A stretch of 64,000 bases of DNA from Candidatus Poseidoniaceae archaeon (GCA_943789275.1 CALSTM010000003.1:160489-224488); one strand, 5' to 3'. Counted from the stretch's first letter, positions 1,668-63,632 are shown. Numbers and translations: made by a program. The notes: a model not told the origin generated them from the sequence alone.

Positions 1668-4600
1668 ATGAACATTGCCCGCACACTGCCAAGCCTCCTC
1701 ATGACAACACTTCTCTTAGCAGCACTTTTGCCGCTTGGAAGCGTTAGTGCAACTCCAACAGAGGAATCCGAGTTTTACTACGGTGTTGAATACGATTGGA
1801 GCAGTGTTGACACTGACCTTGAGAACTTCACAGGTGTTGATGTCCCAGAAATTCTAAGCGAAATTATGGGCGCTGCGGACGATGCAGGATTCAACCTCGT
1901 CATCGGTCAATTGCAAACCGGTGCTTCCAACGTTTATGTCCACCATACCGAAGACATCACCCCTCAAACTATTCAAGACAACAACGGGAACGATGTTTCG
2001 GTTTGGAGCAGAACCGATGACGTAACACTCCGCCACGGCATTCTTGCCGATACAATACTTCAAACCGATTGGACTGAAACGACCTTTGGTTCCGATACGA
2101 CCAGTTTTGACATTGATGTTGTTCAAACCTTGGAACAGTTTTTGACCGTCGATATGACCTATACAGAATACCTTGACGATTCGTACAACCTCATTGGAGC
2201 AGACATGGAATTCAGCATGGATGTCTCAGCCCTCGTCGGCCTCAACATTGATGTGTTGTTGGAAGGCGGCGGAGAGGAATTCCCTGTTGACTTTAACACA
2301 GAATTAGATTTGGGATACTCAATTACAGATTCCACCTCTGAATGGCGCCTCGGCTCACCGAATGCGATTTATGTCGATTTGTCTGCGGCTGATGACAATT
2401 ATTACTGGGAATGCGGCGAATCCGAGTGTGGCGACTTAACTGGCGATTATACCGGTGCAGTTGACTACTCTTTCTCAATAGATGGTATTCCAACTGAAGA
2501 CTTCGGCCTCGATGCGGGGGAGTTCGACCTTGAAATATCTGATTCTCTAACGGAATCGGGTAATTTTGACATGGAGATGTACGGGGAATTCGATTTTTCT
2601 AAGGGAGAAACACTCACCGTTGACCTAGGTGATGGTGAAGGCCTAACCACTCAAGTCCAGAGTTGCGACACCTGCCCACCAGGAAACCCATTGATGTTCC
2701 TCATGATGGGCAACGTCCTTGCAGGGTCTGGAGAGGCGTTTGCTGAACAAGTTGCTGAAGACATCGGTGAAGACATTACTGACAGCCTCGAATCGATTTT
2801 CGGCTCAGCAGAGCCTGAAGGCGACCTCATGCTCTATTCGTTCAGCGCCGAAGAAGCTGTAAACTATGAAGGTGATGAAGACAAATTAGCCTATGTTACA
2901 ATGAACCAAGGCAACGACATCAATTGGGCCACAGTGATGGTCCAAGTATCTGTTGATGGTAACGCACCCGTTACGTGCTCAAACCCTGGAATGCCTGCGG
3001 ATGGCGATTGCAGCCTTGTGGAATTCGGCAGCGTTGGCGACCAATACTGGTCTGTTGGCGATGGCGTCACTATCATGGATGATGCCGATATGTGCCCAGA
3101 AAATAATTACTGTTCAGTCGACATCACCGTCACTGATACTATGGAAGGTCAGATATTGTCATCGACCTGGACATCTGTAGAGGGTTTTACTCCCGCAAAC
3201 GCTCCAGCAAAACTCACCGGAGATCTTCATTTCTGGGGAGATAACATTACAGTTCAGACCGCTCTTTCAGGTAACACTTCAGTTTTACAAAGCGACGATT
3301 CTGCAATGTTTACTTGCGACGATGGCTCTGAAATCGGTTTCACGTCAGTGAACGATGGGGAATCCTCTTGCAGTGACGGATCAGACGAAGCACCTACTGA
3401 TGGTTCGACAAAGATGTTTACTTGCAACGATGGAAGCGAAGTAGAATGGACAACTCTCAACGACGGCTATGGCGATTGTCCAACATTGGAAGACGAAGGC
3501 GTTCTCAACCACTATACTCTCCAGATGAATGTATTTGATGATGCAGGAACACCACTCTCATCGATTGAATCCACAATCTGTGACTCTTGGATGTGCGATT
3601 CAAACCTAGAGTGGGCCACTTCTTGGTCCGAAGACAGTGGCGTAGCCGTCCCCTCAACGTACGGAGAATCAACCATGTGCATGACCGCTTCAATCAGCGA
3701 AACAGGAGCCTCATCTCCACTTGTAGAATTTTCTGAAATGTGCCATTCACAATGGATTGGTCCTGAATTAGGATATGCCGATGTGTGGGAAGACGAAGCA
3801 ATGAGCCTTCGCTACGATATGTCCGTATACGACTGGTCGAGTGACGGAGGGGCGACATTAACCTACTCACTTATGGATCCGAATCAAAACCAACTTGATT
3901 CAGGAACGATGGTTATTGACGGGTCAGACAACTCATACTCGATGGAAGGCAACATTGACGTCCTTGAAGTGGGCGAATATTGCCTCATGACTGAACTTAC
4001 CCAAGACGGGGCTTCAACCCCGTACCTTTCGGAAATGCATTGCACGATGGTTGAAGAATCAGACGATGAAGTCAGCGACCGTGTTGCGGCTGTTATCGAA
4101 GCCCTTGCAGATTCTGGACTTGAGGATGTACTCGAGCAATTCGGTATGAACCTTGAAGATCGTCTTGAAGACGTTGAACCGTTCGAAGAATTCCCTTACG
4201 ACGATGGCATGTGGGCTCCAATGTGGAGCAATGAACATGCTGCTATGGTCGGCGTTGGCGTTTACGTCATGAACGATGATGGCGCATACACCCTTGCTGG
4301 ACCAGAAACTCAAGGCTACATGGACGATGCTCCAGCACAACTCAGCATCCACTACCTAACCGGAGCTGATGCGAACGCCGCAACCAACGGTATGGAAGAA
4401 GCGACTTCCATTGACGACATTGTCAATGTCGATGACCACGACCTCGGAGCAATCGAAGAAGATTTAATTGAAGCTGGAGTTGATGTCAGCAACCTTACTC
4501 TACCTGAAACAGACACTCCGGCTGGAACAGATGGCGGCGATAACCCTACGCCACCAACTGCAGAAGAACTCGCAGAAGATTCCGGCTTGGATTTGCCTTT

Positions 4601-4694
4601 CTTATCCCCAATCTCAATGATTGCGGTCATTGTTCTTGCAGGTGTCGTATCCGGTGGCCGCCGAGACAGCAACACCGACGAGAATGAAGAGTGA
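1668..4694 (+). CDS. large acidic secreted cell-surface protein with C-terminal membrane anchor and two LDL-receptor class A-like Cys repeats
   Basis: Signal peptide MNIARTLPSLLMTTLLLAALLPLGSVSA. The composition is extremely rich in D, E, T and S. Tandem FTC[DN]DGSE...NDG...C.DGSDE repeats lie around nt 3306-3500. The C-terminal hydrophobic helix IAVIVLAGVVSGGRR is followed by an acidic tail. A GGAAGAGG Shine-Dalgarno lies upstream. Confidence 0.6.
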   Translation: MNIARTLPSLLMTTLLLAALLPLGSVSATPTEESEFYYGVEYDWSSVDTDLENFTGVDVPEILSEIMGAADDAGFNLVIGQLQTGASNVYVHHTEDITPQTIQDNNGNDVSVWSRTDDVTLRHGILADTILQTDWTETTFGSDTTSFDIDVVQTLEQFLTVDMTYTEYLDDSYNLIGADMEFSMDVSALVGLNIDVLLEGGGEEFPVDFNTELDLGYSITDSTSEWRLGSPNAIYVDLSAADDNYYWECGESECGDLTGDYTGAVDYSFSIDGIPTEDFGLDAGEFDLEISDSLTESGNFDMEMYGEFDFSKGETLTVDLGDGEGLTTQVQSCDTCPPGNPLMFLMMGNVLAGSGEAFAEQVAEDIGEDITDSLESIFGSAEPEGDLMLYSFSAEEAVNYEGDEDKLAYVTMNQGNDINWATVMVQVSVDGNAPVTCSNPGMPADGDCSLVEFGSVGDQYWSVGDGVTIMDDADMCPENNYCSVDITVTDTMEGQILSSTWTSVEGFTPANAPAKLTGDLHFWGDNITVQTALSGNTSVLQSDDSAMFTCDDGSEIGFTSVNDGESSCSDGSDEAPTDGSTKMFTCNDGSEVEWTTLNDGYGDCPTLEDEGVLNHYTLQMNVFDDAGTPLSSIESTICDSWMCDSNLEWATSWSEDSGVAVPSTYGESTMCMTASISETGASSPLVEFSEMCHSQWIGPELGYADVWEDEAMSLRYDMSVYDWSSDGGATLTYSLMDPNQNQLDSGTMVIDGSDNSYSMEGNIDVLEVGEYCLMTELTQDGASTPYLSEMHCTMVEESDDEVSDRVAAVIEALADSGLEDVLEQFGMNLEDRLEDVEPFEEFPYDDGMWAPMWSNEHAAMVGVGVYVMNDDGAYTLAGPETQGYMDDAPAQLSIHYLTGADANAATNGMEEATSIDDIVNVDDHDLGAIEEDLIEAGVDVSNLTLPETDTPAGTDGGDNPTPPTAEELAEDSGLDLPFLSPISMIAVIVLAGVVSGGRRDSNTDENEE

Positions 4695-12517: not shown

Positions 12518-14119
12518 TCATGCCATTGAACGAGGGGCTGCACCGTTCACTTCTGGCGAAACGCCAGCTTCGTATCGAGCGAAATTTTTGTTAAACATTG
12601 CAGCGAGTTTGTCCGCAGTAGCATCGTATTGAGCAGCATCGGTCCAAGTGTTACGAGGTTGTAGAACGTCCTCAGGAACATTCGGACACTCAACAGGAAC
12701 TTCGAAACCAAACCGTGGGTCGACCACGAATTCCACATTGTCTAAATCTCCGTCCATTGCTGCATTCAGCATTGCACGTGTGTATCGAATCTTCATTCGG
12801 TTTCCAACACCGTACGCTCCACCGGACCAGCCGGTGTTGATGAGCCATGCCTTTGCGCCGTGTTCAGCCATCTTGCCGGAAAGCAGATCTGCATACACAC
12901 CTGGGTGCATAGGCATGAACGGTTCGCCAAAGCAAGCCGAGAACGTGGCTTGAGGTTCTTTGACACCGATTTCAGTTCCTGCGACTTTAGCAGTGTATCC
13001 GGATATGAAGTGGTAGGCTGCTTGAGCAGGCGTAAGTCGAGAGATTGGCGGGAGGACGCCGAAAGCGTCACAGGTCAAGAAAATGACATTTTGCGGGTGC
13101 CCACCTTTCGAATCAAGGGTTCTGTTTTCGATGAATTCAATTGGGTAAGAGCCGCGGGTGTTCTGCGTCTTACTGACATCAGCGAAGTCAGGCACTCCGC
13201 TTTCATCCATGACGATGTTTTCAAGGACGGTTCCGAATTTTCGAGTTGTTCCAAAAATCTCTGGTTCATCTTCTTCGGATAAGTCGATGAGTTTAGCGTA
13301 GCATCCGCCTTCGAAGTTGAAGACGCCGTTTGCGCCCCAGCCGTGCTCATCATCACCGATGAGGGCTCGATTTGGATCGGCTGAAAGCGTGGTCTTTCCG
13401 GTTCCAGAAAGCCCGAAAAAGATAGCCGTATTCTCGCCGGTGGTGTTTGCTGAGCAATGCATTGGAAGAATGCCTTTCTTCGGAAGGATGAGGTTCATGA
13501 CGGAGAAAATCGATTTTTTGATTTCTCCAGCATAGCGAGTTCCGCCAATGATGACTTCTTTCGCTTGATAGTTGACAATCACAAAGCAATGGGAGTTGAG
13601 CCCATCTCGTTCAGCATCTGCTTCGAAGTGTGGTGCGTGCATTACGGTGAATTCCGGAGAATGGGATGCAAGGCGTTCTGCGTCTGGACGAATGAACATG
13701 TTTCGCGCAAATGCATTGTGCCAAGCGTTTTGGTTGATGACACGGATGGGTAGGGCTTCACTGAAGTCAGCGCCGCAATACAAGTCTTGGACAAACAGTG
13801 TGTCTTGTGCAGAAAGGTATTCGACAACTTTTGCACGCATTTTTGTAAAGGTTTCGAGGTCCGTCGAAACATTGACGTCACCCCAATTGATGTCCTCTGA
13901 TGTCGTTTCCTCGTCAACGATGTACTTGTCGTTTGGTGAACGCCCAGTTCGCTCTCCAGTCTCGGTGACAAGAGCTTTATGGGCACTGAACATCCCTTCT
14001 TTTCGAGCCACGGCTAACTCGATGAGTGTTGCAGCATCTTGATTCCAGTAGACCTCTCCAGAGGGGGAAATTCCGTGCGCGTTTAGGTCTCCGGTCGGAG
14101 TCCCATGGGTGGCCGCCAT
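12518..14119 (-). CDS. pckA: phosphoenolpyruvate carboxykinase (ATP)
   Basis: ATG at 14119 gives MAATHGTPTGDLNAHGISPSGEVYWN. Diagnostic PckA-ATP motifs GLSGTGKTTLS (kinase-1a P-loop), IGDDEHGW and FNFEGGCYAK. Length 534 aa. The 667-aa ORF-track version extends through a non-coding leader. Confidence 0.85.
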   Translation of the reverse strand: MAATHGTPTGDLNAHGISPSGEVYWNQDAATLIELAVARKEGMFSAHKALVTETGERTGRSPNDKYIVDEETTSEDINWGDVNVSTDLETFTKMRAKVVEYLSAQDTLFVQDLYCGADFSEALPIRVINQNAWHNAFARNMFIRPDAERLASHSPEFTVMHAPHFEADAERDGLNSHCFVIVNYQAKEVIIGGTRYAGEIKKSIFSVMNLILPKKGILPMHCSANTTGENTAIFFGLSGTGKTTLSADPNRALIGDDEHGWGANGVFNFEGGCYAKLIDLSEEDEPEIFGTTRKFGTVLENIVMDESGVPDFADVSKTQNTRGSYPIEFIENRTLDSKGGHPQNVIFLTCDAFGVLPPISRLTPAQAAYHFISGYTAKVAGTEIGVKEPQATFSACFGEPFMPMHPGVYADLLSGKMAEHGAKAWLINTGWSGGAYGVGNRMKIRYTRAMLNAAMDGDLDNVEFVVDPRFGFEVPVECPNVPEDVLQPRNTWTDAAQYDATADKLAAMFNKNFARYEAGVSPEVNGAAPRSMA

Positions 14120-14312
14120 GCCACCTCCTTCCGCGGGACCTCTTTGTCCCTTTTGGCTGTCCAATTTCTCTTGAGGAGGGTTTGTGAAGTAAAAAACGAG
14201 GTATTGCGCCTCAACTCTGATTTCTACGGTGTTTTTACAACACCCCCACAAATCCTCGCCCGAAATTACAATCGGCGAAAGCATTGAAGAGGACTTCTTA
14301 GAAGAGCCAATC

Positions 14313-17300
14313 ATGACTGATGACACGAAGGGGCGCCGCTCAACGCCGGCTCCTTCGTCACCGCGCGACGAGGTGGCTCGAAAACGAGACTTCCGACGCG
14401 CCCAAGGCATTGACATCAAATCGTTCATGGTCGATGCGGAGCCGGACGAACCTCCGCAACCAGAAAAAGCGGAACCTGTCATCGAAGATATCGCCGTTGG
14501 CGAGATTTCACCGCTCTTCACCTCCGGTGACGAAGAGTCGACTGTGGCCGGAGCAGTTCAACGGGATGGCACCGTAGAAAAAGCACCGGAAATGGACAGT
14601 GTATCGGACATAGCTGTGCACGGTGAGAAACGCTTGAGTCTCGGACTTTTGGTGGCGATGGTCTTCATTTGGTCCGCAATTGGGGCGATGGTTGGAACCG
14701 TCTTACCCGAACTTCTCAGCGGTGCTGGCCTACTTTTCATGGGCGTCTTAGGATTGTACCTTGGAGAACGATGGATTCCGAATCCAAACATGAGACTTCT
14801 GGGCGTAACTTGGGTTATTATATCGATGAAATTATTCTATGGACTCGCTCTTGATGCATGGCACTGGGGCTGGTTTGACGCGTCTCCTCTAGGAGCAAGT
14901 GAAACGCTTGGCATCAGTCTTATCGGCGTCGTATCGATGAACGTGTATATCGCTCAGCGTCACAACGAGGATGCTATTGCTGCACAAGCAACGCTCATAC
15001 TTCTGCTGGTAGGTAGCGCTGCAGGCGCACTTTATGGCGAGATTGGAATCGCCAGCATGATTGCTTTGGGAACGCTTTTGATGCACGGTTTGGCCGTGTA
15101 CCGGGAGTCTGGAAATCTTGCAAGCCTTGGAATTGCATCTTCGTATCTTTGGGTTGGTGTCCATGCGCTTTCTAACAATTGGGAATTGTTCGGACTTGAA
15201 TTGGTTTCTTTTGATGACGAATTATTGCTCTTTTTGCTCATGGCTTTTGTGACGGCCACAAACGCAACGATAGCAGCGCGATTTGTTCGGGCTGAGAATT
15301 GGTTCTCAAAGGCGTTCGAAGGCATGGGTCTGGGCAACCCTTCACTGTGGGCAGTCTCTGTTGGCCTGGGCATGATTGGTGCGCTGTTAGCCATTGCCGC
15401 CTATCGCTTGGAGACCGGTTACGCGCTGGCACAACTGGCGTTGCTGATTGGGGCCTTTTCCGGTTCGTACCTTGTCGTTCGCGGCGTTCGATTCCAAGAC
15501 ATTGCGCCCTTTTTGGTCGTGCCTACGCCGTTTCTTTTGGTTGGGCTTGCCATTTACAGTTCTGGAATACTTCCAGCATCTCTTCCACTTGGGTTGGATG
15601 AATACAGCGTGTATGCTGCGCTCACTTCGTTGTTCACCGCACTGGCTTTACTTCGAAACCAAACGGCTGTATCGGACCACGTTATTTGGTTGGGTGGCGT
15701 AGCCATCGTAGGATTACTTACACTTCTTATTCCCGCTGGCGAGTTGGACAACGGCGCCAGGATTCTTTTGACAACCCAGGCTATTATTTGGCTTGGATTA
15801 TCTGGCCTTGCCGTTCTCCGCTCTTCACCTTCTATTGCTGGAACTGCAGTCATCGGGCCATGGATATGGCTTCTGTTCTTTGCCACGGATGTTGATTCAC
15901 GCCTCATTTCGGTCGACCTCCTACCAATTGTTATTGATGAGTATGATCTTTTCATCTGGATGGGCCTTCTTGTTGTTCAACAAATTTGGGTCAACATCCG
16001 CCACGGGGAAGTTGGATTGAACCTTGCATCGCGTCTTGTTGGCTTTTCAGAAATAGGAGCGCGACTGCGTGATTCGGGCTTCGCGAAGCTTTGGAATCTA
16101 AGTTTCCTCCTCACACTGATCGTTACTTGGGCAGTTACCCGCCCGGGTGCTTTGCCGATATACGGGCTTCTTGGCGTACTGGGGGGCCTTCTCATTGGCC
16201 ATTCACTGATGGTGTACCTCGATAGGCATAGGGGTAAACCTCAGTCGTTGATGGGAGTTTGGGGTGTTTTTGCAGTATTGTTTTCGTGGAATTTCGGGCA
16301 ATCAGCGGTATGGGCTCTTTCCTTGGTAGCCTCGTGTGCCGTGATGCTCAAGGCATCCGAACAAAGCCGTGAACGCGGAGCCTCTGAGTTTGAACTCGAA
16401 AAAATGGAAGCTTTGCCCGGAAAACTCCTCACCATGATGATGGGTTTCCTCACCGTGTTTTTCATCATGATTGCGTTGAATCCGTTGACCACAATACCGT
16501 TGACTGGTTCTGAGTACATGTTCGACCAGGAAACAAACCTGTTGGTCTTGATGATTGTTGGCTTGGTGTCTTTGGCGCTGTACTTGGTTCGAGCCGCTAC
16601 TTTAGAGAAACTGTTGCCGCCGGCCGTAACGGCAGTTGGCCTCATCCTTTCGATGGCCCTTGCCGGCAGGTCAATTGCCGTTGAATCCGTTGTTTTGGTC
16701 GCACTTGTTGCCTTTGTAATGTCTGGAGCATATTTGGCAATTCAAGGCGAGTTCCGTTCAGGTATACGGGCGCTGACCAAGAAAGAAAACAGGGTCCAAC
16801 GGCTAAAAGAGAAGCAAGACAGGATTCAAGCCTTCCTTGACTCCACTGGAATGGAGGGTACTGAAGTTGTTCAACTTGGCAACCAATTTGCAGACGGCGA
16901 AACGCCTGAAACGCCTCAAAGCAATTTACGCCTTATCGATTCTGAATTACTGAACTTGGCTGAAAAGCAAAGAAAACGCCAAAAACGGGCCGGCTCAACC
17001 GGGGAAATGGACCTCTATGTAGGCGACATACACCACCAGCCCACGATTGTTCTGCTCTTTTTGGGAACGACAATCCTCGCAACCACTTACCTTTCATTCA
17101 CCACCGGTGCCACTCTTCTTGCCCTTATGTTCAGCGTCCTGATTTCTGTTCTCTTTGTCGGCCTTTCCCGCCTTCGTGCCAATCAAATTGGTTTACGTTT
17201 GCCCGATATACTCGGTATCGAGGCGCCAATAGCCCTTGCTATGCTGGGCTTGGTCATGGTTCACATCGCAGGCCGAGCGTCCAATTCAGTTGTGGAACTT

Positions 17301-18221
17301 GAAGACTCCACCCATCTAGCAGTCTTCTTCGGAGGATTGGTATCGTTAGCAGGGCTTGGTCTTCTGGGACGAAACGACCTCGGTTATCGAATTCCGAATG
17401 CGCTGGAAGGCGTCGTTTACCTTGCAGCACTTGACCGGGCAATGTGTGTTGTTGTTGGAGGTGAGGTCCCGATTCCGTTCAATCTGGACCCGTTTATTTC
17501 CGATTATTCGATCGCAACTTGGACTGTACCGTTTTTGTTGATTGAAGTACTTTTGATTGGTGCTGTGTTTGCCTTTAACTGGGTTGAAGGTAAGCGTATT
17601 CAACACAGTATGGACGATCATCGAGGGGCAGCAGGGCGCTCCGCTTGGATTCTCTTTATCGCTGTGATTTCTTTTGGTCCAGCAGCTTTTGCTGCACTTA
17701 TCGTGGGTGCTCGACGCGGTGTTTGGTGGTCACAGCCAGCAGTCGTGCTCACTGCTTGGCTGCTCACGCCATTGGCTTATCTTGCCACCAGCGCTTGGCT
17801 TTCCGACTTTGCCGCTTTGCCTCAACTCTCTCTGGTCACCACAGCACAGGGCATTCTCACCATCGCCTTTGTAGCATGGACGGTGGAAAAGCGGCAAGGA
17901 CTGTGGCTGCCAGCGGGGTTGTGGGCCATGCATATCCTGTTGATTGGTTCGGGCTTTGGATATGGAAACTTACTCATCACCGTTCTCCTCATCTTGGCTT
18001 CTTCAACCACTTCTTGGGTGTCTGGAATCCTCACCTTGCGGAAATCTTGGCGTATCGTCGGGGCACTTGATTTGGTACTTGCGTGGATTGTAGCTTCAGT
18101 TGTCATCATTCAAGGTGCTGCAGTGGAGGTCTTACTGGCTATACTGGTCGCATCCGCCGTTCTCCTCGGACTTGTGACGTTCTTAACACAGACTTACGAA
18201 GGCGAAATGGCAAAGGAGTGA
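14313..18221 (+). CDS. giant polytopic membrane protein (about 1300 aa, at least 30 predicted TM helices) of unknown family
   Basis: ATG at 14313 (MTDDTKGRRSTPAPS...); the track start 14229 is GTG and abuts a T-rich TATA-like element. Acidic N-terminal roughly 100 aa. Dozens of hydrophobic helices follow. A central charged coiled-coil-like segment RALTKKENRVQRLKEKQDRIQAFLD...AEKQRKRQKRAG lies at about nt 16770-17010, then a second block of helices. Confidence 0.6.
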   Translation: MTDDTKGRRSTPAPSSPRDEVARKRDFRRAQGIDIKSFMVDAEPDEPPQPEKAEPVIEDIAVGEISPLFTSGDEESTVAGAVQRDGTVEKAPEMDSVSDIAVHGEKRLSLGLLVAMVFIWSAIGAMVGTVLPELLSGAGLLFMGVLGLYLGERWIPNPNMRLLGVTWVIISMKLFYGLALDAWHWGWFDASPLGASETLGISLIGVVSMNVYIAQRHNEDAIAAQATLILLLVGSAAGALYGEIGIASMIALGTLLMHGLAVYRESGNLASLGIASSYLWVGVHALSNNWELFGLELVSFDDELLLFLLMAFVTATNATIAARFVRAENWFSKAFEGMGLGNPSLWAVSVGLGMIGALLAIAAYRLETGYALAQLALLIGAFSGSYLVVRGVRFQDIAPFLVVPTPFLLVGLAIYSSGILPASLPLGLDEYSVYAALTSLFTALALLRNQTAVSDHVIWLGGVAIVGLLTLLIPAGELDNGARILLTTQAIIWLGLSGLAVLRSSPSIAGTAVIGPWIWLLFFATDVDSRLISVDLLPIVIDEYDLFIWMGLLVVQQIWVNIRHGEVGLNLASRLVGFSEIGARLRDSGFAKLWNLSFLLTLIVTWAVTRPGALPIYGLLGVLGGLLIGHSLMVYLDRHRGKPQSLMGVWGVFAVLFSWNFGQSAVWALSLVASCAVMLKASEQSRERGASEFELEKMEALPGKLLTMMMGFLTVFFIMIALNPLTTIPLTGSEYMFDQETNLLVLMIVGLVSLALYLVRAATLEKLLPPAVTAVGLILSMALAGRSIAVESVVLVALVAFVMSGAYLAIQGEFRSGIRALTKKENRVQRLKEKQDRIQAFLDSTGMEGTEVVQLGNQFADGETPETPQSNLRLIDSELLNLAEKQRKRQKRAGSTGEMDLYVGDIHHQPTIVLLFLGTTILATTYLSFTTGATLLALMFSVLISVLFVGLSRLRANQIGLRLPDILGIEAPIALAMLGLVMVHIAGRASNSVVELEDSTHLAVFFGGLVSLAGLGLLGRNDLGYRIPNALEGVVYLAALDRAMCVVVGGEVPIPFNLDPFISDYSIATWTVPFLLIEVLLIGAVFAFNWVEGKRIQHSMDDHRGAAGRSAWILFIAVISFGPAAFAALIVGARRGVWWSQPAVVLTAWLLTPLAYLATSAWLSDFAALPQLSLVTTAQGILTIAFVAWTVEKRQGLWLPAGLWAMHILLIGSGFGYGNLLITVLLILASSTTSWVSGILTLRKSWRIVGALDLVLAWIVASVVIIQGAAVEVLLAILVASAVLLGLVTFLTQTYEGEMAKE

Positions 18222-18281: not shown

Positions 18282-18845
18282 ATGAGCCAACTGTTTCAAA
18301 TGGACAACTACGTCATCCGAACAAAACTTCTTCGAATCTTTGGCGGAGCATTTTATTTCGAAGATTTAGAAGGAAATGTTGTCGCATACTCGAAACAAAA
18401 GCGATTCAAATTAAAAGAAGACATCGTCTTGTATACCGACGAGAGTTGCACCGTCCCATTGGTACAAATTAAGGCCCGATCGGTGTTTGATCTTGCTACA
18501 ACCTACGATATCTTCAGCCCACAAGACGGAACAAATCTCGGCTCTGCAAAACGCCAAGCACTGAAGTCCATCCTCAAAGATTCGTGGACCATTAACGATC
18601 CTGCTGGAAACCCATACGCCACATTTGTCGAAGACAGCATCGCCATTCTGCGCCGGTTCATTCCTTATATTCCGGCTAAATACCATTTTGAAGTGCCAGG
18701 TCAACCCGAGATTCTCATGCAACAGAGGTTCAACCCACTGATCAAAAGAACGCAGATATCAATCCCTCCAGGTCATCCATTGGACCGCAGAGTTATCGCT
18801 GCTATCGCTTTGTTAAGTTCTGCAATTGAAGGCCGCCAAGGCTGA
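18282..18845 (+). CDS. LURP-one-related / tubby C-terminal-like fold protein (DUF567-like)
   Basis: MDNYVIRTKLLRIFGGAFYFEDLEGNVVAYSKQKRFKLKEDIVLY matches the LOR family pattern of recall. Confidence 0.45.
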   Translation: MSQLFQMDNYVIRTKLLRIFGGAFYFEDLEGNVVAYSKQKRFKLKEDIVLYTDESCTVPLVQIKARSVFDLATTYDIFSPQDGTNLGSAKRQALKSILKDSWTINDPAGNPYATFVEDSIAILRRFIPYIPAKYHFEVPGQPEILMQQRFNPLIKRTQISIPPGHPLDRRVIAAIALLSSAIEGRQG

Positions 18846-36333: not shown

Positions 36334-36819
36334 ATGCAGCAACTAAGCGAAGACGGTAAGTGGAAGTGGGACGGATCAGAATGGGTGCCGAATGAAGGTG
36401 CTGATGAAACACCATCATCTGCAGTAGCGGATATTCCAGTAGCGGCGGCTCCAATAGCCTCGCAAGAGCCCGTACAGGCAACGACTCCAATGGCCCAAAG
36501 TTCAACCCATAACGGGGGAGTCTGGGCAATACAAACTGCAGAATACGGGCTGTTTTTCACGAAACTCATCGGCTTCATTCTGACAGGAATCACCCTTGGC
36601 TTTGGCCTCCCTTGGGCAAAATGCATGGTCATCAACAAGTGGTCGAAAAAAGTCCGAATTGATGGGCGAAGCATCCGCTTTACCGGTACTCCAATGGGAT
36701 TATTTGGAATATGGGTGAAGGTTTGTGTGCTGAGTATCATAACGCTAACGCTGTATTATTGGTTCGCTGGTTACAAGCAGGTAGCAAAGTACGTTGACAG
36801 CCACATCACTTGGGCTTGA
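36334..36819 (+). CDS. DUF898-like small membrane protein
   Basis: ATG 36334 (the 36325 start is TTG). N-terminal soluble part MQQLSEDGKWKWDGSEWVP. Two TM helices flank a GFGLPWAKCMVINKWS motif reminiscent of the YjgN/DUF898 family. Confidence 0.4.
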   Translation: MQQLSEDGKWKWDGSEWVPNEGADETPSSAVADIPVAAAPIASQEPVQATTPMAQSSTHNGGVWAIQTAEYGLFFTKLIGFILTGITLGFGLPWAKCMVINKWSKKVRIDGRSIRFTGTPMGLFGIWVKVCVLSIITLTLYYWFAGYKQVAKYVDSHITWA

Positions 36820-36929
36820 AACCAAATCTATCTTTCCTTGCCATTCCAGGAGCTGGAAGTTTTGTTAAAACCACAGTGATTTTGTTGTGGCAAAGGCAAG
36901 AGACATATTCGACGGCCGCGCGTCGCAGC

Positions 36930-38468
36930 ATGAGCGCTATGGCTGCAAAGGGAAGTAAGTCAACCGAATCGGATGCTTTTATTCCGCTCCCGGACCCTTA
37001 CGGTGAGGGTTTTGAGTACTCTGAAGACCCGATTGAAAACACTCGTAATCAATGGAGTGTTCTGGAGAACCGCCGGCTTAAAGCTGGCCGAGTTGCACGT
37101 CATCCGATTTTGATGCTTTGGAGAACCATGAGCGGTTTTTCTTTGGCGGTTTTTGCGTTTGCCAGCCTACTTTATGCTCCAGTCATCGAGTCCCTTAACG
37201 GTTTGATTTTCATTCTTATCCCGCTGATGTTGATGGCTGTAGCACCGACTGTAGTTGCCGGTGAATCGGCGTGGCAAGCAATGCAAGCAAGAATTTCCCT
37301 GCGTGAACAAGGTGGCGTTCGTAAGGGCAAAAAGCACGCTTTACGGGCTCAACCTGGTATGGACCGTATTCTGGAAAGTCTCAACGACCAACGCCGAAAT
37401 AACTTGGTACTGGCCCTTCTTTCGTCGTTAACCGTCGTCCTGTTGATGCTTGCATCGGCTGTGACTTCGAATTCTCTGGCATGGAACTTGGCTCTTCTCA
37501 TAGCAATGACGCTTGGCATCGCCCAAACGTTTCACGGTTTCTTTTCATACGGTTTCATCCGCCAACTCGGAGACCCTTTTCCATCCATTGTTTTTCACGC
37601 ACCTACACACCATCCAACCCAATTAGGCAGTGTGTTGGGGGATTTATTGGTGGCTCATTTAGACCCAGACCTGTATTTGGAATGGGAGGAATGGCAGAAA
37701 ATGTTCCGCAAGGCAATGATTCCCGGTCATATCACAAAGCAAGCCTTGGAGCGATTGCTCTACATTTTGCACCTTCATATGGAAGAGGAATTAACCACTC
37801 AGGTGGCTTATGAAGAACTCAAGTCTTTTCTTTCGGAAGACCGATTTGAAAAGCTCTTACTCGATGAAGCAGCCAGATTTAATTGGCGGACAATCCAGCG
37901 GCTTATCGCCCATTCCAGGGGTTGGCAGCCTGAAGCCTTCTTGTTGCTCGATCGTCTTCAAAACGATTTGCTCTCAGGGGCGCCTCCACTCCTTCGTGCT
38001 GAATGGCGTATGGATGTGGCTTTGGACGACAATTGCTATGAAGGGTCAGGAAATTTATTCATCGCTTTGAACAACCAAACGTTCGAATCCCGGGCGGTTC
38101 GCGTTGAGGTTTTGACTCCGAACGGGGAGCCTGAAACCAGAGACCATAGATTCGAGTTAAGTGCCTGCCCGCCTCCAAAAAGTTCAGTTTTGCTCTCACA
38201 TCCGGTTGAGGACGACGCTCTGGATTGGATACCCCGCTACTTGGAGCGAGGCGTTGTTCTGTGGATTGGTGTTGCTTGGCCTCGAAGTTTCCAAGGACCG
38301 GTAGACGTACAGGTCATTCTTCGTGATGACGAGGGGATTGTTCTGGAATCGCAAGTCATTCGAACGATTGTTCGCCGGTCCGCTGGGCGCCAAATCAACA
38401 AGAGAATGCACAAACTTGAAGACGCTCGGAAACAAGGCGACCTTCCACTCCCAAAGGTTGTACTTTGA
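36930..38468 (+). CDS. hypothetical membrane protein with large C-terminal soluble domain
   Basis: ATG 36930 (the 36810 start is TTG and overlaps the upstream gene). Four TM helices within the first roughly 220 aa, then a roughly 300-aa soluble domain. Confidence 0.45.
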   Translation: MSAMAAKGSKSTESDAFIPLPDPYGEGFEYSEDPIENTRNQWSVLENRRLKAGRVARHPILMLWRTMSGFSLAVFAFASLLYAPVIESLNGLIFILIPLMLMAVAPTVVAGESAWQAMQARISLREQGGVRKGKKHALRAQPGMDRILESLNDQRRNNLVLALLSSLTVVLLMLASAVTSNSLAWNLALLIAMTLGIAQTFHGFFSYGFIRQLGDPFPSIVFHAPTHHPTQLGSVLGDLLVAHLDPDLYLEWEEWQKMFRKAMIPGHITKQALERLLYILHLHMEEELTTQVAYEELKSFLSEDRFEKLLLDEAARFNWRTIQRLIAHSRGWQPEAFLLLDRLQNDLLSGAPPLLRAEWRMDVALDDNCYEGSGNLFIALNNQTFESRAVRVEVLTPNGEPETRDHRFELSACPPPKSSVLLSHPVEDDALDWIPRYLERGVVLWIGVAWPRSFQGPVDVQVILRDDEGIVLESQVIRTIVRRSAGRQINKRMHKLEDARKQGDLPLPKVVL

Positions 38469-40268: not shown

Positions 40269-40709
40269 ATGGGCGTGCCGACTTTGTTCGACCGAATCAT
40301 CAGCGGCGAGGTGCCTTCACATCGAGTTGCTGAAGGTGAGCATTGGTATGCGTTCCTCGATATTTTCCCTCGATGCCAAGGCCACACGCTTGTGGTTCCA
40401 AAGCAGAGCGTCCAACATATCTCATCGCTTTCACAGGCATCAAGAAGCGCTATGTTTGAAGGGGTCGTCGAGGTACAGCGTCGCCTAAGCCTCTATTTTT
40501 CAACCTCCGATTTCACCGTCTGCGTTCACGATGGACCTCTCGCAGGTCAAGAGGTGCCTCATGTCCACGTCCATGTTTTACCACGGCAACCGGGTGATGG
40601 CGGCTTAACCCTCCATTCAATGTGGCCACATTCGCCTCCAATCGGTGGCGAAATCGACCACAGTTCACTTGCCCTTCTCTCGGAGCAACTGCGCGAGGTG
40701 GACCAATGA
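40269..40709 (+). CDS. HIT-family (histidine triad) hydrolase
   Basis: HVHVHVLPR histidine triad motif. N-terminal FDRIISGEVPSHRV is typical of HIT proteins. Confidence 0.7.
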   Translation: MGVPTLFDRIISGEVPSHRVAEGEHWYAFLDIFPRCQGHTLVVPKQSVQHISSLSQASRSAMFEGVVEVQRRLSLYFSTSDFTVCVHDGPLAGQEVPHVHVHVLPRQPGDGGLTLHSMWPHSPPIGGEIDHSSLALLSEQLREVDQ

Positions 40710-42328
40710 GTCAACCAATCAATGATGGAGCGACCGACCACCGAGGCGATAAATTGCCCGAATTGTCCAAATCGGCGAAAAATATGCGGATGGATAAGTT
40801 ACTGTCTGCTCCAATGCCAAAGTTCGACGGAAATACCCCCGGTTCACCCTTCTGGTCTGGCGTTGCGTATTGGATTGCTCGCCGTATATTAGCCGCCCAA
40901 TTTAGGACAAGTGAGGTTTCAGGAAAAGAGACACTTCCTTTGGACCGAGGGAATCTCTGCTGTGCTTGGCACACAAATGGACTCATGGATCCGTTGCAAA
41001 TCGTACTCAAGCACCCCAAGAATTTCGTCATGGGTGGGCGGCATGACCTGGTTACGCGTCCTTTGTTGAGTTGGTGGACTCGTAAATTGGCGGTGCAACC
41101 GGTCGTAAGAAAGGCCGAATTACTGCGAGGTGGATGCAGTGAAGAAGAGGCGACTCAGATAAATGGGCGTTCTTTGATGATGCTTTCCAAAGGAATTTCC
41201 TCAGGCTTTGGTTGCGTTTTATTTCCAGAAGGAACCAGCCATGACGAGTCTTCTATGTTGCGATTCCGAACAGGTCCTTTCCGTACCGTTTTTGCAGCCG
41301 CTGCACTGGCAAAAGCAAGCAATAAAACCCTTCCTGCCGTCATCCCCATCGGTTTGCATTTTAGAGAGCGGGAAAAGTTCCGCACGGATGTCTGGGTTGA
41401 ATACGGTTTGCCACACAACCTGTCTGAAGGGGAAATACCACTCGATTTAGTTCAGGCAGTATCGCAAGGGAAGTGGGTCGAACCTCCAGCAGAAAATGTC
41501 TTTGCGTTGCGCGATAAACTCCGTACGCGTTTGGTTCCGCTTACTCCGAATACCGCTTCTTGGGAAGAATACGACGCTCTCCATTTGATGGGCCATGTCG
41601 AATCTCGGCGCACCAACCAACCGCTTATTTCATGGCGAGAAGAAGTACAATCAGCACGCGCCTTACGCACTCTTTTGCAGCATCAACTCACCGAACAAGA
41701 AGTCATCGATAATACACCGGTGCCGGAGATTGTTCACCCTGCGCTCGGCCCTGCCAAAGCGGTGGCAAGTATTCTCAAAGAAAGCCAATTGGATGGGCGT
41801 GACATCAACTCCACGGGGACAGACTTGCGCCGAGTGGAGCTGTTTTCACTGGTGAAAAAATTCGTTCGACTCCCCTTATTGCTTACGCTCTTACCTCTTT
41901 TCATCTATTCCTTTACACCACAAATAGCAATGGGCAGAATACTTGGTGATTCAACCGATGAGGGGCTTGATGCTCGAACTTCGTACCATTTCTTGGCGGC
42001 CATGTTTGGTTCGTTGATGTTCTGGCCGTTCATGGCTTTGGGTCTGTTGGGCCTTGAACATTTGAATCATGAAGCAATTGTGTCGCTGCTTGGATTTGAC
42101 TGGTTAACATTCATTGGCACGACCACGCTTCATCAGAACTTAGCTCGAGCAGCGTTTACATTGACCCTCTTTCCCCTTTTCTGGCTTTGCGGCCGAACAT
42201 CGACTCTGTTGTGGGATGATTGGTGCGATTTGAAGCGGGCTTTGCGCCGCTTCCGCTTCAACAGTACGAAACGACAAAATCTTCGTGGGGCACTCAAAAT
42301 CCTCCATTCTGAGATGGATAAACTGTGA
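40706..42328 (+). CDS. PlsC-type (lysophospholipid/glycerol-3-phosphate) acyltransferase with C-terminal multi-TM domain
   Basis: ATG 40706 overlaps the HIT stop (ATGA). Acyltransferase block I region CCAWHTNGLMDP (H...D) and block III LFPEGTSHDES. Roughly 150 C-terminal residues form four or more TM helices. Confidence 0.55.
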   Translation: MSQPINDGATDHRGDKLPELSKSAKNMRMDKLLSAPMPKFDGNTPGSPFWSGVAYWIARRILAAQFRTSEVSGKETLPLDRGNLCCAWHTNGLMDPLQIVLKHPKNFVMGGRHDLVTRPLLSWWTRKLAVQPVVRKAELLRGGCSEEEATQINGRSLMMLSKGISSGFGCVLFPEGTSHDESSMLRFRTGPFRTVFAAAALAKASNKTLPAVIPIGLHFREREKFRTDVWVEYGLPHNLSEGEIPLDLVQAVSQGKWVEPPAENVFALRDKLRTRLVPLTPNTASWEEYDALHLMGHVESRRTNQPLISWREEVQSARALRTLLQHQLTEQEVIDNTPVPEIVHPALGPAKAVASILKESQLDGRDINSTGTDLRRVELFSLVKKFVRLPLLLTLLPLFIYSFTPQIAMGRILGDSTDEGLDARTSYHFLAAMFGSLMFWPFMALGLLGLEHLNHEAIVSLLGFDWLTFIGTTTLHQNLARAAFTLTLFPLFWLCGRTSTLLWDDWCDLKRALRRFRFNSTKRQNLRGALKILHSEMDKL

Positions 42329-43134: not shown

Positions 43135-46100
43135 ATGGGTCAAAAAATAAAGTCAGTCAGTCTTGTATCAATCATGTTGCTTTCCGTCATGTCGACGCTC
43201 TTCTTGGCGTCTCTTACCGCAACAGCGAACACCGTCGTCATCACCGAAGCAATTCAAATCGTTGACGGAGGAACTTCATCCGATACTCAAACTTCAGTCG
43301 GCTCTGACAGTGAAGGAAACGTTCACGTCGTTTGGACTCGGAACAACCTTCACCTCTACTACTCGATGATTTCTCCTCGTGGTGACACCTTGATTGACAC
43401 CACGCAGATTTCAAACCCAGGTCTTCACAAAATCTGGCACCCAGACATGGTTGTTGACGAAAACGACAAGATTCACGTTGTTTGGGCTGATAAGTCAGGC
43501 CAACACAAAATCATGTACACCGTCCTCAACCCTTGGGCATCATCCATGGACGGCATGGCCTCAGACGATGGAACACTTTCTGCAATTGACGACTACGTTG
43601 TCTCAAGCCGTGCGCAAAACCGCGACTGGCCAGCAATCGACATTGACAGCCAAGGCGGCGTTCATATTGTCTGGGAAGATTCCTACGACTCAGAAGGCAA
43701 GTTCTTCAGCCAACCACAGATCTACTACACCATGTTGTCACCAGATATCAGCAGTGGCGCAGTCATTGTCAATTTTGACGATACCCTTCTGACTCCAATC
43801 ATTGGTCACAAAGGCCACCCTGACGTCGTCGTTGACGCAAACGATTACGTCCAAATCGCTTGGGACGACACCCGAGGTGGAAAGGTCGAGCTCAGTTTCA
43901 TCGTTGACACCTCCGGTTCCATGTACTCGGAATGGGCGGACATCTGTACCGTTGTTTACGGTGGGAACTTTGCTTCCGGCGGTTACTTCCAAGGTATCAA
44001 GCCAATGCTTGAAACCGCAAACATGACTGTTTACGAAACCATCTACGGTCTTGGAAATACACTCCCTGGTGCTGCAAGTTCAGGTAACTGCGCTGGTAAG
44101 AACCAAAATTCTGGCCCTCGCACAACGCCTTTGGGTCAAACACCAGGTGACGACTCTGGCGGTATTCGAAAGCTACCGGGGACCGTCTACAACGGCAACA
44201 CTTACTCCGGATATTCCGGTGAAGATTGGGGCCCAGGAACCAACTGGGGTTGCCTTTCATGGAAAGACGCTCAAGGAAACGTCCCAGGAAACCCGCCAAC
44301 TCAAGACGACCACCGATGGAATCCAAACGCAACAAAGATCATCATTCCAGTTTCAGACGAAGGTCCGAAAGACGGTGACCCATCTCAACAAGCAGATGAC
44401 CTGACCTCTATTGAAGAGGCGCACGACAACTGTATCAACGCAGGAGTCATTCCAGTCGGTCTTTACGGACAAGGATACGGTGGAGCCGGTAACATCCAAT
44501 CCCACTTCATGGATTTAGTCCAATGTCCAAACAACGTCGTTTCGACCCAAACTCGAAACTGCCCAGGTAACACGCTACGAAGTTCAGACGCTGGTGGACA
44601 AGCCTATGAGTTCCCATCCGGAACCGGTGGAAACAACGCAATGGCTTTGCTTGTTGAAGCAATGGTTTACATCTCTACAAACAACTCTCGTGAAATCTAC
44701 ATGACTGTTCTGGACCCATACGGTAAGATGAACAACGACCCGTCTTGGACTCCAGGCGCAACAGGACACTCAGTTGTCAACGGCGAATACGTCGAAGATA
44801 CCGGTGCTGGTGCAGACGGCCACCTCGTGGTTGTCAACGACACCCGTGTCACCATTGACGATGCTTACTCGTTCCACCCATCGATTGGTGTTGACATGCA
44901 AGGCAACACCCACATTGCATGGATGGACGGCCGAAACTATGGATTTGAGAAGGCTGTGAACTACGAAGTGTTCTACACCAAACTCCGACTTCAAGGTGCA
45001 GGTGCGTGGGACGGTGCTGACCAAGGACTTTCCACCTACGCTATCAAGAAGATTCAGGATACTCCAATCTCGAATGTTGAAGGAAACGGTGGACTCCCTG
45101 GTAACCGGCCGTTTGGTGGAAACTCCGTATTCCCTGCTCTGCTTACTGATGACCAAAACAACGTTCACATTGCGTGGGTCGATTCAGGAAACGCAACTGC
45201 TGATGAAGAAATCATTTACACTCGCCTGAACTCTACTGACTTGACTGGGCCGGGCCTTACTGCTCTTGACCCTTGGGAAAACGTGCCCGTCACCTCATGG
45301 GCAAGCAACAAACTTGGGCCAAACTCTGGCAGTCAGCCGAGCATAGGCATGCCTCCAGCGTTTTCGAACGATTTGGGAAGTGGCGCGCATATCGCTTGGT
45401 CGGACACGAATAAATGCGGTGAAGACGCCAACAATAACCGCTTCACGATCTGTTATTCCCACGTTCTCACCGGTCAGGTTGACGTTGAATTCCAAGATGG
45501 AGAAACGTACTACCACGTTATCGAACCTGGTCAGCAAACCATCTACAACATGTCAATGAACAACTCGACCCCAGGTCCAAAAGACCTTGTCGCTGATACG
45601 TTCGGACTCAACATCTCTGGTGTTCCCCAAAACTGGACTGCTACACTGTTCTTTGCTGATAACCATACGACAATAATGCCAGACACGCCTATCTTCCTCG
45701 AAGGTGGAGAAGACATTCGCTTCTACATGCGAATTCGTGCTCCGTCGGTGTACCAAGCTGAAGCGGACCAGATTGCCGATATATCGGTGATTGCTAAATC
45801 GTACAAGGACCCTGCTATTCAGTCCGACCTCGTCACTCGTACGCTGATGGACGTTGTTCACGGCATAAACCTGGACACCTCCCACAGCATGGCAGACGTC
45901 GAACAAGGCCAAACTGCGATTTTCTCGATTACGATTACCAACACAGGCAACGTCAACGACCAATTCGTATTCTGGGACCCGTATACACTTGAAGGCCGCC
46001 AAGAGTGGCTGCTTCAATTCGGTTGGACTGTAAACTTCCCAACCAGTGTAGAATTAGACCCTGGACAATCCGTTACCAAGAACCTCGAAGTCTTCGTCCC

Positions 46101-58225: not shown

Positions 58226-58275
58226 ATTGTATAAATTGGCTAATACATAATTAACAACCCAGTCTTAGCGTTGAC

Positions 58276-63614: not shown

Positions 63615-63632
63615 GACGCCACATAACGTGAG

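What the first reader, a model, noticed from the sequence alone, without database searches (positions are those of the whole stretch)
14313..18221. Approx. 1300-aa membrane protein with dozens of TM helices and a central basic coiled-coil segment
This is one of the largest polytopic membrane proteins one would expect in an archaeal genome. It has an acidic N-terminal roughly 100 aa and two long blocks of hydrophobic helices separated by a charged segment (KKENRVQRLKEKQDRIQ...AEKQRKRQKRAG, nt about 16770-17010). No transporter, OST/AglB, or MmpL/RND signature is recognisable by eye. It is divergently arranged with pckA.
Basis: seen in the sequence. Interest (0 to 1): 0.6.

Follow-up and report, generated by a model that had tools for sequence, protein, structure and literature searches.

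The report
Giant 38-helix orphan archaeal membrane protein
This is a real, strongly conserved gene for a 1302-residue membrane protein that crosses the membrane about 38 times, is found only in the abundant marine archaea Poseidoniales (Marine Group II), and matches no known protein family or solved fold, so its function is still open.

Summary
Window 14313-18221 (+) encodes a 1302-aa protein with about 38 membrane passes (24 + 14). A 104-aa N-terminal region and a roughly 95-aa charged linker both lie in the cytoplasm.

- **Real gene:** dN/dS against orthologues is about 0.05. It is single-copy in the window, and its divergence tracks that of pckA (r = 0.91).
- **Distribution:** relatives occur in 254 species-level genomes. 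All named ones are Poseidoniales, covering both families.
- **Conserved neighbour:** pckA lies divergently beside it in 75 of 76 related loci.
- **No family match:** Pfam, NCBIfam, PHROGs, PADLOC and PDB sequence or profile searches return nothing. An exhaustive search of 1.84 billion representatives finds only the family itself.
- **No internal duplication** is detectable.

Function is not established. My best guess, at low confidence, is a wall of stacked transmembrane hairpins. Its conserved N-terminal helices 3-10 would form a cytoplasm-facing working site that translocates or processes a membrane-associated substrate.

The parts
14313..18221 (+). Gene for the 1302-aa, roughly 38-pass membrane protein (stop codon included). 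An upstream in-frame GTG at 14229 is a less likely start.
   Evidence: ORF list. The start aligns with the first Met of most orthologues. dN/dS is 0.04-0.05.
14313..14624 (+). Cytoplasmic N-terminal region, residues 1-104. It holds a conserved basic motif (RDEVxRKRxFxRAxGxDxxxFMV), a variable acidic spacer, and a conserved GAVQxDGTV...DSVxDxAVxGEKRL segment leading into TM1.
   Evidence: Alignments A1 and A3. Charge counts. The motif is retained in the most distant homologue P0218. This region was not included in the structure models.
14625..16748 (+). Transmembrane block 1, residues 105-812, about 24 helices.
   Evidence: Hydropathy. AlphaFold helices. Positive-inside bookkeeping.
14793..15479 (+). 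Most conserved core, TM3-TM10 (residues 161-389). It includes buried K173, N210, Q225, H258, N268, H284 and N317, and the cytoplasm-side motifs QRHDEDA, RxSGNLAS, ENWFS and GLGKPGLW.
   Evidence: Mean column conservation is 0.58-0.83 per helix, against 0.37-0.60 for TM16-TM38. Invariant residues come from the 60-sequence alignment.
16749..17042 (+). Cytoplasmic linker, residues 813-910. It has a basic amphipathic helix continuous with TM24, a variable acidic disordered spacer, a basic helix (EKQRKRxKR), and the conserved GDIHH(R/Q)P motif before TM25.
   Evidence: AlphaFold shows a long helix at protein residues 791-844, pLDDT below 50 at 847-872, and a helix at 877-892. Charge and hydrophobic moment. 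Length and sequence vary across the family.
17043..18194 (+). Transmembrane block 2, residues 911-1294, about 14 helices. It is a compact, confidently modelled domain with buried E1078, R1042 and D1253, and a helix broken at G1121-P1122.
   Evidence: AlphaFold model of residues 900-1302: pLDDT 93.5, pTM 0.88. Conserved residues. Topology.
14123..14312 (.). The 190-nt intergenic region shared with divergent pckA. It presumably holds the promoters of both genes.
   Evidence: Sequence. The adjacency is conserved in 75 of 76 loci, with a median gap of about 188 nt.
12518..14122 (-). pckA (ATP-dependent PEP carboxykinase), the divergent neighbour.
   Evidence: PF01293, E = 4e-215. Synteny.
18282..18845 (+). 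A 187-aa ORF directly downstream on the same strand. It is clade-specific and may be co-transcribed.
   Evidence: It is present 50-400 nt after the large gene, on the same strand, in 17 related loci, and absent from the others. The only family hit is a sub-threshold LOR (LURP-one-related) match, E = 0.11.

Best explanation
SHOWN. This is a genuine, single-copy, vertically inherited core gene of the order Poseidoniales. It encodes a 1302-aa integral membrane protein with about 38 passes (24 + 14), N-in/C-in topology, and only short acidic external loops. The two extramembrane parts, the N-terminal 104 residues and a roughly 95-residue linker, are both cytoplasmic. The family has no detectable sequence relative outside itself and no internal repeat. 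Its confident AlphaFold models match no solved fold. The best structural matches are designed helical-repeat and toroid proteins, soluble solenoids and EccD. That pattern points to an up-and-down array of antiparallel transmembrane hairpins.

INFERRED (my commitment, low confidence). The protein forms an extended intramembrane wall or arc. The highly conserved N-terminal module (TM3-TM10) carries invariant polar residues near the cytoplasmic leaflet: QRHDEDA, RxSGNLAS, H258, H284, N317 and ENWFS. Together with the few deeply buried charges (K173, E1078, D1253), this module is the working site. The remaining helices are scaffold. The most likely activity is translocation or processing of a membrane-associated (lipidic or lipid-linked) or amphipathic substrate delivered from the cytoplasm, rather than classical small-solute transport. 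The cytoplasmic N-terminal motif and the basic linker helices would then be docking or regulatory elements. The gene shares a bidirectional promoter region with pckA, so it is probably expressed together with gluconeogenic metabolism.
For: - Real and constrained: dN/dS 0.04-0.05. There are 601 and 514 family hits, nearly all about 1200-1400 aa. Relatives occur in 254 species genomes. Identity co-varies with pckA identity, r = 0.91.
- Topology: 50.8 K/R inside against 7.8 outside.
- Orphan status.
- No repeats.
- Fold: pLDDT 81.2 and pTM 0.59 for residues 104-1302. pLDDT 93.5 and pTM 0.88 for residues 900-1302.
- Working-site inference: conservation is concentrated in TM3-TM10. Only three charges lie 9 or more residues deep in a helix.
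- Cytoplasmic motif: it is kept even in a relative that is 22% identical in the profile alignment.
- pckA adjacency: 75 of 76 loci, while both outer flanks vary.
- Context: the membrane lipids of MGII are unresolved. G1P dehydrogenase is missing and PlsC-like acyltransferases are present (PMC6962369). The window itself has a PF01553 acyltransferase.
Against: - No direct functional evidence of any kind.
- Model coordinates could not be inspected. The wall or arc geometry, the position of the buried charges and any cavity are inferred only from the identity of the fold-search hits.
- The N-terminal 103 residues were not modelled.
- Divergent adjacency to pckA may be inherited synteny without co-regulation. 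The most distant homologue (L087) lacks it.
- Most polytopic proteins are ordinary transporters. Inverted structural repeats can be invisible at the sequence level.
- A link to lipids is circumstantial.
- AFDB could not be searched, so a match among predicted structures is not excluded.
Confidence: 0.3

Rival explanations
1. It is a classical ion-coupled secondary transporter or channel of unusual size. It could take up a gluconeogenic substrate such as C4-dicarboxylates, amino acids or peptides, and be co-regulated with pckA. The buried K173, E1078 and D1253 would serve as coupling-ion or substrate sites.
For: - Most polytopic proteins without soluble domains are transporters (general knowledge).
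- There are a few invariant buried charges and a helix broken at a Gly-Pro pair in block 2.
- The bidirectional pairing with pckA is conserved in 75 of 76 loci.
- Mrp-type antiporters are reported missing from Poseidoniales (PMC9258230).
Against: - No profile match to any transporter family.
- No internal repeat.
- 38 helices is about three times the usual transporter size.
Confidence: 0.2
2. It is a structural membrane organiser or force sensor. A curved wall of transmembrane hairpins would shape, stiffen or sense tension in the membrane of these planktonic archaea. This would be analogous to Piezo blades, or to EccD dimers that enclose a lipid-filled cavity.
For: - The fold searches return only solenoid and toroid geometries plus EccD.
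- An EccD dimer forms a lipid-filled 20 x 30 A cavity (PMC6986878).
- The count of about 38 helices equals that of Piezo (own knowledge).
- External loops are minimal.
- The gene is order-wide and single-copy.
Against: - Many invariant polar residues cluster in TM3-TM10 at the cytoplasmic interface, which looks more like a catalytic or binding site than packing.
- There is no pore module or external cap.
Confidence: 0.2
3. It is the membrane platform of a larger multi-protein machine, for example a secretion or surface-assembly complex. The cytoplasmic N-terminal motif and the basic linker would dock soluble partners, as EccD docks EccC and EccE.
For: - The short cytoplasmic motif is conserved even in the most distant homologue.
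- The linker has conserved basic helices.
- EccD is the best natural membrane-protein match.
- PGM/PMM-like and LbH nucleotidyl/acetyl-transferase-like genes stay in the neighbourhood in 66 of 69 loci, and lie on the other side of pckA in L085.
Against: - No partner gene is co-oriented or operonic across the family. The gene is flanked by a divergent and a convergent gene.
- No ESX, secretion ATPase or glycosyltransferase gene is adjacent.
- There is no YukD-like domain by sequence.
Confidence: 0.1
4. It is an artefact: a chance ORF, a fusion of two genes created by a sequencing or assembly error, or a decaying pseudogene.
For: None beyond the two-block architecture.
Against: - The full-length architecture, with both blocks and the linker, recurs in hundreds of independent assemblies.
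- There are no stops in the orthologues examined, and dN/dS is about 0.05.
- GC3 is like that of the neighbours.
Confidence: 0.01

Closest known systems
EccD (membrane component of mycobacterial ESX / type VII secretion; PDB 6lar_B, 7b9f_X)
   Different: - 9-10% identity; rmsd 6-16 A over 159-245 residues.
- 11 helices against about 38.
- No YukD/ubiquitin-like domain is detectable by sequence.
- No ESX partner genes nearby.
- Archaeal rather than actinobacterial or firmicute.
- Designed soluble repeat proteins score as high or higher, so the resemblance is generic geometry, not evidence of homology.
Designed alpha/alpha toroids and helical-repeat proteins (7rdr circular tandem repeat protein, 6xr1 dTor_9x57R, 8g9k THR2, 6u1s TMHC8_R transmembrane nanopore)
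   Different: They are artificial, mostly soluble, internally repetitive and 4-12% identical. The archaeal protein has no detectable sequence repeat and is membrane-embedded.
Piezo mechanosensitive channels (resemblance recalled from own knowledge; only partly tested here)
   Same: Both have about 38 transmembrane helices per chain. The Piezo blade is also a long, solenoid-like array of transmembrane helices.
   Different: - No Pfam Piezo domain.
- No nine-fold 4-helix repeat at the sequence level.
- No large external cap or C-terminal pore module; the longest external loop is about 25-31 residues.
- Half the length, and archaeal rather than eukaryotic.
Antiporter-like subunits NuoL/MrpA (large multi-helix proteins with a long lateral helix)
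   Same: Both have many helices, a few conserved buried Lys/Glu residues, a broken helix, and one very long helix (residues 791-844) leaving the membrane domain.
   Different: There is no Proton_antipo_M or other Pfam/NCBIfam match. No such structure appears among the listed fold matches. The long helix here runs into a cytoplasmic linker rather than along the membrane domain, though that detail could not be checked without coordinates.

Membership tests
Known transporter families (MFS, RND/MmpL, APC/LeuT, ABC permeases, NuoL/Mrp antiporter-like) | Significant match to the family's profile HMM | tested here: not met
   Pfam and NCBIfam gave 0 families at E <= 10 for the window protein. Sixteen distant members gave nothing significant.
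Known transporter families (MFS, RND/MmpL, APC/LeuT, ABC permeases, NuoL/Mrp antiporter-like) | Characteristic fold recognisable by structure comparison | tested here: not met
   [not shown]
Secondary transporters with internal (inverted) repeats | Two or more homologous helix bundles within one chain | tested here: inconclusive
   No repeat by blastp or hhalign; non-trivial probabilities are below 3%.
Oligosaccharyltransferase AglB/STT3 | STT3 profile match, WWDYG motif, large extracytoplasmic C-terminal domain | tested here: not met
   No Pfam hit. No WWD[YWF]G motif. The C-terminus is cytoplasmic and 8 residues long, and external loops are about 31 residues or shorter.
GT-C glycosyltransferases in general | Acidic DxD/ExD-type motif in a long first extracytoplasmic loop; GT-C fold | tested here: not met
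   The first two external loops are about 2 and 10 residues. The only DxD is D526-V-D528, in external loop 15-16. No GT-C structure appears among the listed fold matches.
EccD (type VII secretion) | N-terminal ubiquitin-like (YukD) cytoplasmic domain | tested here: not met
   No Pfam match for the whole protein or for residues 1-106. The N-terminus was not modelled, so the fold itself is untested.
EccD (type VII secretion) | 11-helix membrane domain superposable on EccD | tested here: inconclusive
   [not shown]
EccD (type VII secretion) | Genomic association with EccB/C/E, MycP and WXG100 genes | tested here: not met
   The neighbours are pckA, PGM/PMM-like, LbH transferase-like, DNA polymerase D and ribosomal proteins.
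Piezo | About 38 transmembrane helices organised as nine 4-helix repeats, plus a pore module and an external cap | tested here: not met
   The helix count is similar. However, there is no repeat, no large external domain, no Pfam match, and no Piezo chain among the listed fold matches.
CDP-alcohol phosphotransferases | D(x)2DG(x)2AR...G(x)3D(x)3D signature on a 6-helix core | tested here: not met
   [not shown]
Poseidoniales giant-membrane-protein family (this family, unnamed) | About 1200-1400 aa; N-terminal RxF...GxDxxxF motif; VTWVIISMKL, RHDEDAIAAQATL and RxSGNLAS motifs; charged linker; GDIHH; 14-helix C-terminal domain | tested here: met
   The window protein is 56-95% identical to Poseidoniaceae members and 31-46% identical to the more divergent members (Thalassarchaeaceae and others) over its full length. 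It carries all the invariant columns.

The most novel reading that the evidence does not exclude
The protein is a new class of membrane architecture: a single-chain, roughly 38-helix transmembrane solenoid or toroid. It would enclose or organise a patch of lipid, or a very large conduit, and would be an order-defining component of the still-unidentified, possibly mixed archaeal/bacterial-type membrane of Marine Group II archaea. Its conserved cytoplasm-facing polar module would then act on lipids or lipid-linked intermediates.
Probability: 0.2. Interest if true: 0.85.

Novelty: categorically new. Interest (0 to 1): 0.6.

Why it matters
Poseidoniales are among the most abundant archaea in the surface ocean. 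They remain uncultured, and their membrane composition is unresolved (PMC6962369).

This gene stands out for several reasons:
- It is present in single copy across both families of the order and is under strong purifying selection.
- It encodes one of the largest polytopic proteins known in prokaryotes.
- It has no relative or fold match anywhere else.

That makes it a prime candidate for a lineage-defining membrane function. The confident AlphaFold model of the C-terminal domain, together with a defined set of invariant polar residues, gives concrete targets for heterologous expression, cryo-EM and mutagenesis. If the helical-hairpin wall is real, it would add a natural membrane counterpart to alpha-solenoid and toroid folds that are so far known mainly from soluble and designed proteins.

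Tried and rejected
**Family and sequence searches**
1. Pfam, NCBIfam, PHROGs and PADLOC scans of the protein, plus a Pfam scan of 16 distant members, gave no significant hit.
2. PDB sequence (phmmer) and profile (hmmsearch) searches found nothing. The only weak hit was GluD2, E = 0.17, which is noise.
3. Signature motifs for STT3, CDP-alcohol phosphotransferase, site-2 protease, presenilin, PAP2 and P-loop are all absent. A single GxSG and a single DxD are not conserved as family motifs.

**Internal duplication**
4. blastp of the two halves, hhalign self-comparison, and hhalign of six overlapping segments of a 60-sequence alignment gave only trivial overlaps.

**Structure comparison**
5. Foldseek against PDB returned only low TM-score soluble solenoids.
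7. Foldseek against AFDB50 was unavailable.

**Origin and reality of the gene**
8. Mobile or viral origin is rejected: GC3 is like the neighbours', divergence tracks pckA, and there are no phage or defence family hits.
9. An artefact or fusion is rejected by conservation of the full architecture.

**Distribution and literature**
10. Extension of the family beyond Poseidoniales: only one very distant relative was found in a different context (L087, beside a histidine kinase), and its organism could not be identified.
11. Literature searches for a described giant Poseidoniales membrane protein or a transmembrane solenoid class found nothing specific.

**Downstream ORF**
12. The 187-aa downstream ORF has no PDB hit, and its LOR match is sub-threshold.
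Full report
**The observation.**
The ORF list shows one uninterrupted frame at 14229..18221 on the + strand.

Hydropathy analysis of the sequence and of family alignments shows four parts:
- a soluble N-terminal region of about 104 residues
- a hydrophobic block at residues 105-812
- a charged segment at 813-905
- a second hydrophobic block at 911-1294

The N-terminal region is net acidic (13 K/R, 23 D/E), although its first 40 residues are basic. The central segment is net neutral (16 K/R, 16 D/E). It consists of two conserved basic amphipathic helices around a variable acidic spacer. 'Charged' is therefore right, 'basic' holds only for the flanks, and 'coiled-coil' is unproven.

The upstream neighbour on the opposite strand is ATP-dependent PEP carboxykinase (PF01293, E = 4e-215).

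**Is it a real gene?**
Yes.
- The database search returned 601 relatives for the window protein, and 514 for a profile of distant members. Nearly all of the listed ones are 1200-1400 aa and full-length.
- Against three orthologues of 88-95% identity, dN/dS is 0.04-0.05, with no stops.
- The gene is single-copy in the window, and its GC3 equals that of its neighbours.
- Across 75 related loci, its identity to the window protein correlates with that of pckA (r = 0.91). It evolves faster than pckA but about as fast as the neighbouring PGM-like enzyme. This fits vertical inheritance.

**Distribution.**
A scan of one genome per GTDB species found relatives in 254 species. Every informative record title among the best 80 is Poseidoniales, Poseidoniaceae (47-95% identity) or Thalassarchaeaceae (about 46%), or a generic 'Euryarchaeota/Methanobacteriota/Thermoplasmatota' MAG. 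One contig is labelled as a Rhodobiaceae bin and is probably mis-binned. The original MG-II genome CM001443.1 carries the gene.

An exhaustive HMMER search of 1.84 billion cluster representatives found only 181 hits. About 25 are full-length (1200-1490 aa, down to 27-32% identity) and the rest are fragments. No protein of another architecture was hit.

The most distant member (P0218) aligns over about 700 columns at 99.8% probability and keeps the N-terminal motif. It sits beside a HisKA_7TM/PAS kinase on a 57.7% GC contig of unknown origin.

**Topology.**
AlphaFold secondary structure gives about 44 helices, of which 36-38 are membrane-spanning. Two elements are each treated as a helix pair: the 45-residue helix at 220-264, and the helix at 1105-1138 that is broken at a Gly-Pro pair. 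This gives 38 passes with both termini inside.

Under that model, family-averaged K+R counts are 50.8 in 'in' loops (32.5 without the linker) and 7.8 in 'out' loops. Every long or basic loop falls inside, and every acidic loop falls outside. External loops are short, with median lengths of about 31 residues or less. There is no extracytoplasmic domain.

**Family and fold searches.**
- Pfam and NCBIfam gave no hits, even at E <= 10.
- Sixteen distant members gave no significant Pfam hit either.
- PHROGs and PADLOC gave none.
- PDB by sequence gave only noise, and PDB by profile gave zero hits.
- Internal duplication between or within the halves was not detected by blastp or by profile-profile comparison. 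All non-trivial hhalign probabilities were below 3%.

A 60-sequence alignment spanning 31-96% identity gave two AlphaFold models:
- residues 104-1302: mean pLDDT 81.2, pTM 0.59. Low confidence is confined to the variable linker spacer and two loops.
- residues 900-1302 alone: pLDDT 93.5, pTM 0.88. This is a well-defined 14-helix domain.

Foldseek against PDB found no hit at E <= 1e-3. TM-scores were 0.05-0.25, all on soluble alpha-solenoids.

- designed helical-repeat and toroid proteins, including a circular tandem-repeat protein aligned over 373 residues at 4.1 A
- a designed 16-helix transmembrane nanopore
- soluble solenoids

Two CDP-alcohol phosphotransferases matched over only 86-107 residues.

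For a confident 403-residue domain, these scores and coverages indicate shared helical-hairpin geometry rather than a shared fold. No transporter, GT-C, MBOAT or antiporter-like fold appears among the listed matches. AFDB50 could not be searched, and I could not inspect coordinates.

**Conserved features.**
Conservation is concentrated in TM3-TM10 (mean column conservation 0.58-0.83). Later helices are less conserved (0.37-0.60 for TM16-TM38).

Invariant or nearly invariant motifs in the 60-sequence alignment include GERWIPxPxMR, VTWVIISMKL, RHD(E)DAIAAQATL, HGLAxxRxSGNLASLG, HA, ENWFS, GLGKPGLW, SYLVVRG, NQxxVSDH, RxSPSIAG, ARLRDSG, GDIHH, RLPDxxGIE, DHRGAxGR and LRxxxRxxGAxDL. Under the inferred topology, most of these lie at the cytoplasmic ends of helices.

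Only three conserved charges lie 9 or more residues deep in a helix: K173 (TM3), E1078 (TM30) and D1253 (TM37).

The N-terminal motif (RxF...GxDxxxF) is retained even in P0218.

**Genomic context.**
In 75 of 76 related loci with enough upstream DNA, pckA lies divergently within 1 kb (median gap about 188 nt). The exception is the distant L087. Both outer flanks vary between lineages: DNA polymerase D, large unknown proteins, or PGM/LbH upstream of pckA; PGM/LbH, or two unknown genes plus a ribosomal-protein cluster, downstream of the large gene.

A PGM/PMM-like gene lies convergently downstream in 66 of 69 loci. In L085, that gene and the LbH gene lie on the other side of pckA.

The gene is thus monocistronic in most lineages. 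In 17 loci, including this window, a 187-aa ORF follows on the same strand.

**Mechanism (inference).**
Three features argue for a working site rather than mere packing: the size, the absence of soluble domains, the hairpin-array geometry, and the cluster of invariant polar residues on the cytoplasmic side of an N-terminal 8-10-helix module. The remaining helices would provide an extended intramembrane wall.

I commit, at about 0.3 confidence, to a translocase or processing role for a membrane-associated or amphipathic substrate supplied from the cytoplasm. The N-terminal motif and basic linker helices would be docking or regulatory elements, and expression would be coupled to pckA through the shared intergenic region.

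The rivals are:
- an unusually large ion-coupled transporter or channel (0.2)
- a structural, curvature or mechanosensing scaffold in the manner of Piezo or EccD (0.2)
- a platform of a multi-protein machine (0.1)
- an artefact (0.01)

MGII membrane lipids are unresolved: G1P dehydrogenase is absent and PlsC-like genes are present (PMC6962369). A PF01553 acyltransferase lies in this window. This makes a lipid-related role attractive but is only circumstantial.

**Comparison with known families.**
The protein works, at most, 'like' EccD or Piezo blades in being a long array of transmembrane helices. It is a member of neither. It has no YukD domain or ESX neighbours, and no Piezo repeats, cap, pore module or structural hit. 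It fails every tested criterion for transporters, STT3/GT-C and CDP-alcohol phosphotransferases.

**Verdict.**
The family is an order-restricted orphan with no detectable homologue and no fold match among solved structures. I therefore rate it categorically new as a protein family and fold, with function unknown. Interest is 0.6. It is a conspicuous, testable piece of 'dark matter' in a globally abundant archaeal lineage, but there is as yet no mechanistic surprise that can be demonstrated from sequence alone.

Noticed in passing
window 14141-14154 (+ strand), within the pckA / large-gene intergenic region: The element TCTTTGTCCCTTTT (AAAAGGGACAAAGA on the pckA strand) is present in 75 of 83 related intergenic regions, at a fixed offset of about 18 nt upstream of the aligned pckA Met. 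In frame it would read K-G-Q-R. However, third codon positions are invariant, one locus (L026) has an in-frame TGA, and others have an ATG just upstream. It is therefore either a variable PEPCK N-terminal extension or, more likely, a non-coding 5'-UTR or operator element.
   Followed up: partly
window 18282-18845 (+): A 187-aa ORF with no significant family. Its only hit is a sub-threshold LOR/LURP-one-related (tubby/scramblase-like) match, E = 0.11. It lies 50-400 nt downstream of the large gene on the same strand in 17 related loci (the closest clade plus L031 and L032) and is absent elsewhere. It is a possible clade-specific co-transcribed partner.
   Followed up: partly
window 56001-64000: GC content drops to 0.41-0.44 from about 0.48-0.53 in the rest of the window. 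The region contains a 982-aa ORF (60720-63668, -) with no Pfam match. This may be a genomic island.
   Followed up: no
window 40622-42328 (+): A 568-aa protein with a PlsC-type Acyltransferase domain (PF01553, E = 7.5e-10). This is the kind of bacterial-type lipid gene discussed for MGII in the 'lipid divide' literature (PMC6962369).
   Followed up: no
window 43135-48225 (+): A 1696-aa ORF with weak CARDB, DUF7507 and NPCBM-associated domain hits. It is probably a large surface protein.
   Followed up: no
window 1668-4694 (+) and 36810-38468 (+): Two further large ORFs (1008 aa and 552 aa) without any Pfam match at E <= 1e-3.
   Followed up: no
window 54664-56790 (+): A 708-aa MFS/BT1-type transporter whose Pfam match starts only at residue ~291. 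It therefore carries an unexplained N-terminal extension of about 290 residues.
   Followed up: no
L063 (CALDQY010000039.1): A contig labelled 'uncultured Rhodobiaceae bacterium' encodes a full-length orthologue (49% identity). It is most likely a Poseidoniales contig mis-binned into a bacterial MAG.
   Followed up: no
L087 2834-6457 (JGI 3300022665, 7.4 kb contig, GC 57.7%): This is the most distant family member (P0218, 1207 aa, 22% identity in the profile alignment). It lies downstream of a HisKA_7TM/PAS histidine kinase instead of next to pckA. Its organism is unknown, so the family may extend thinly beyond Poseidoniales.
   Followed up: partly
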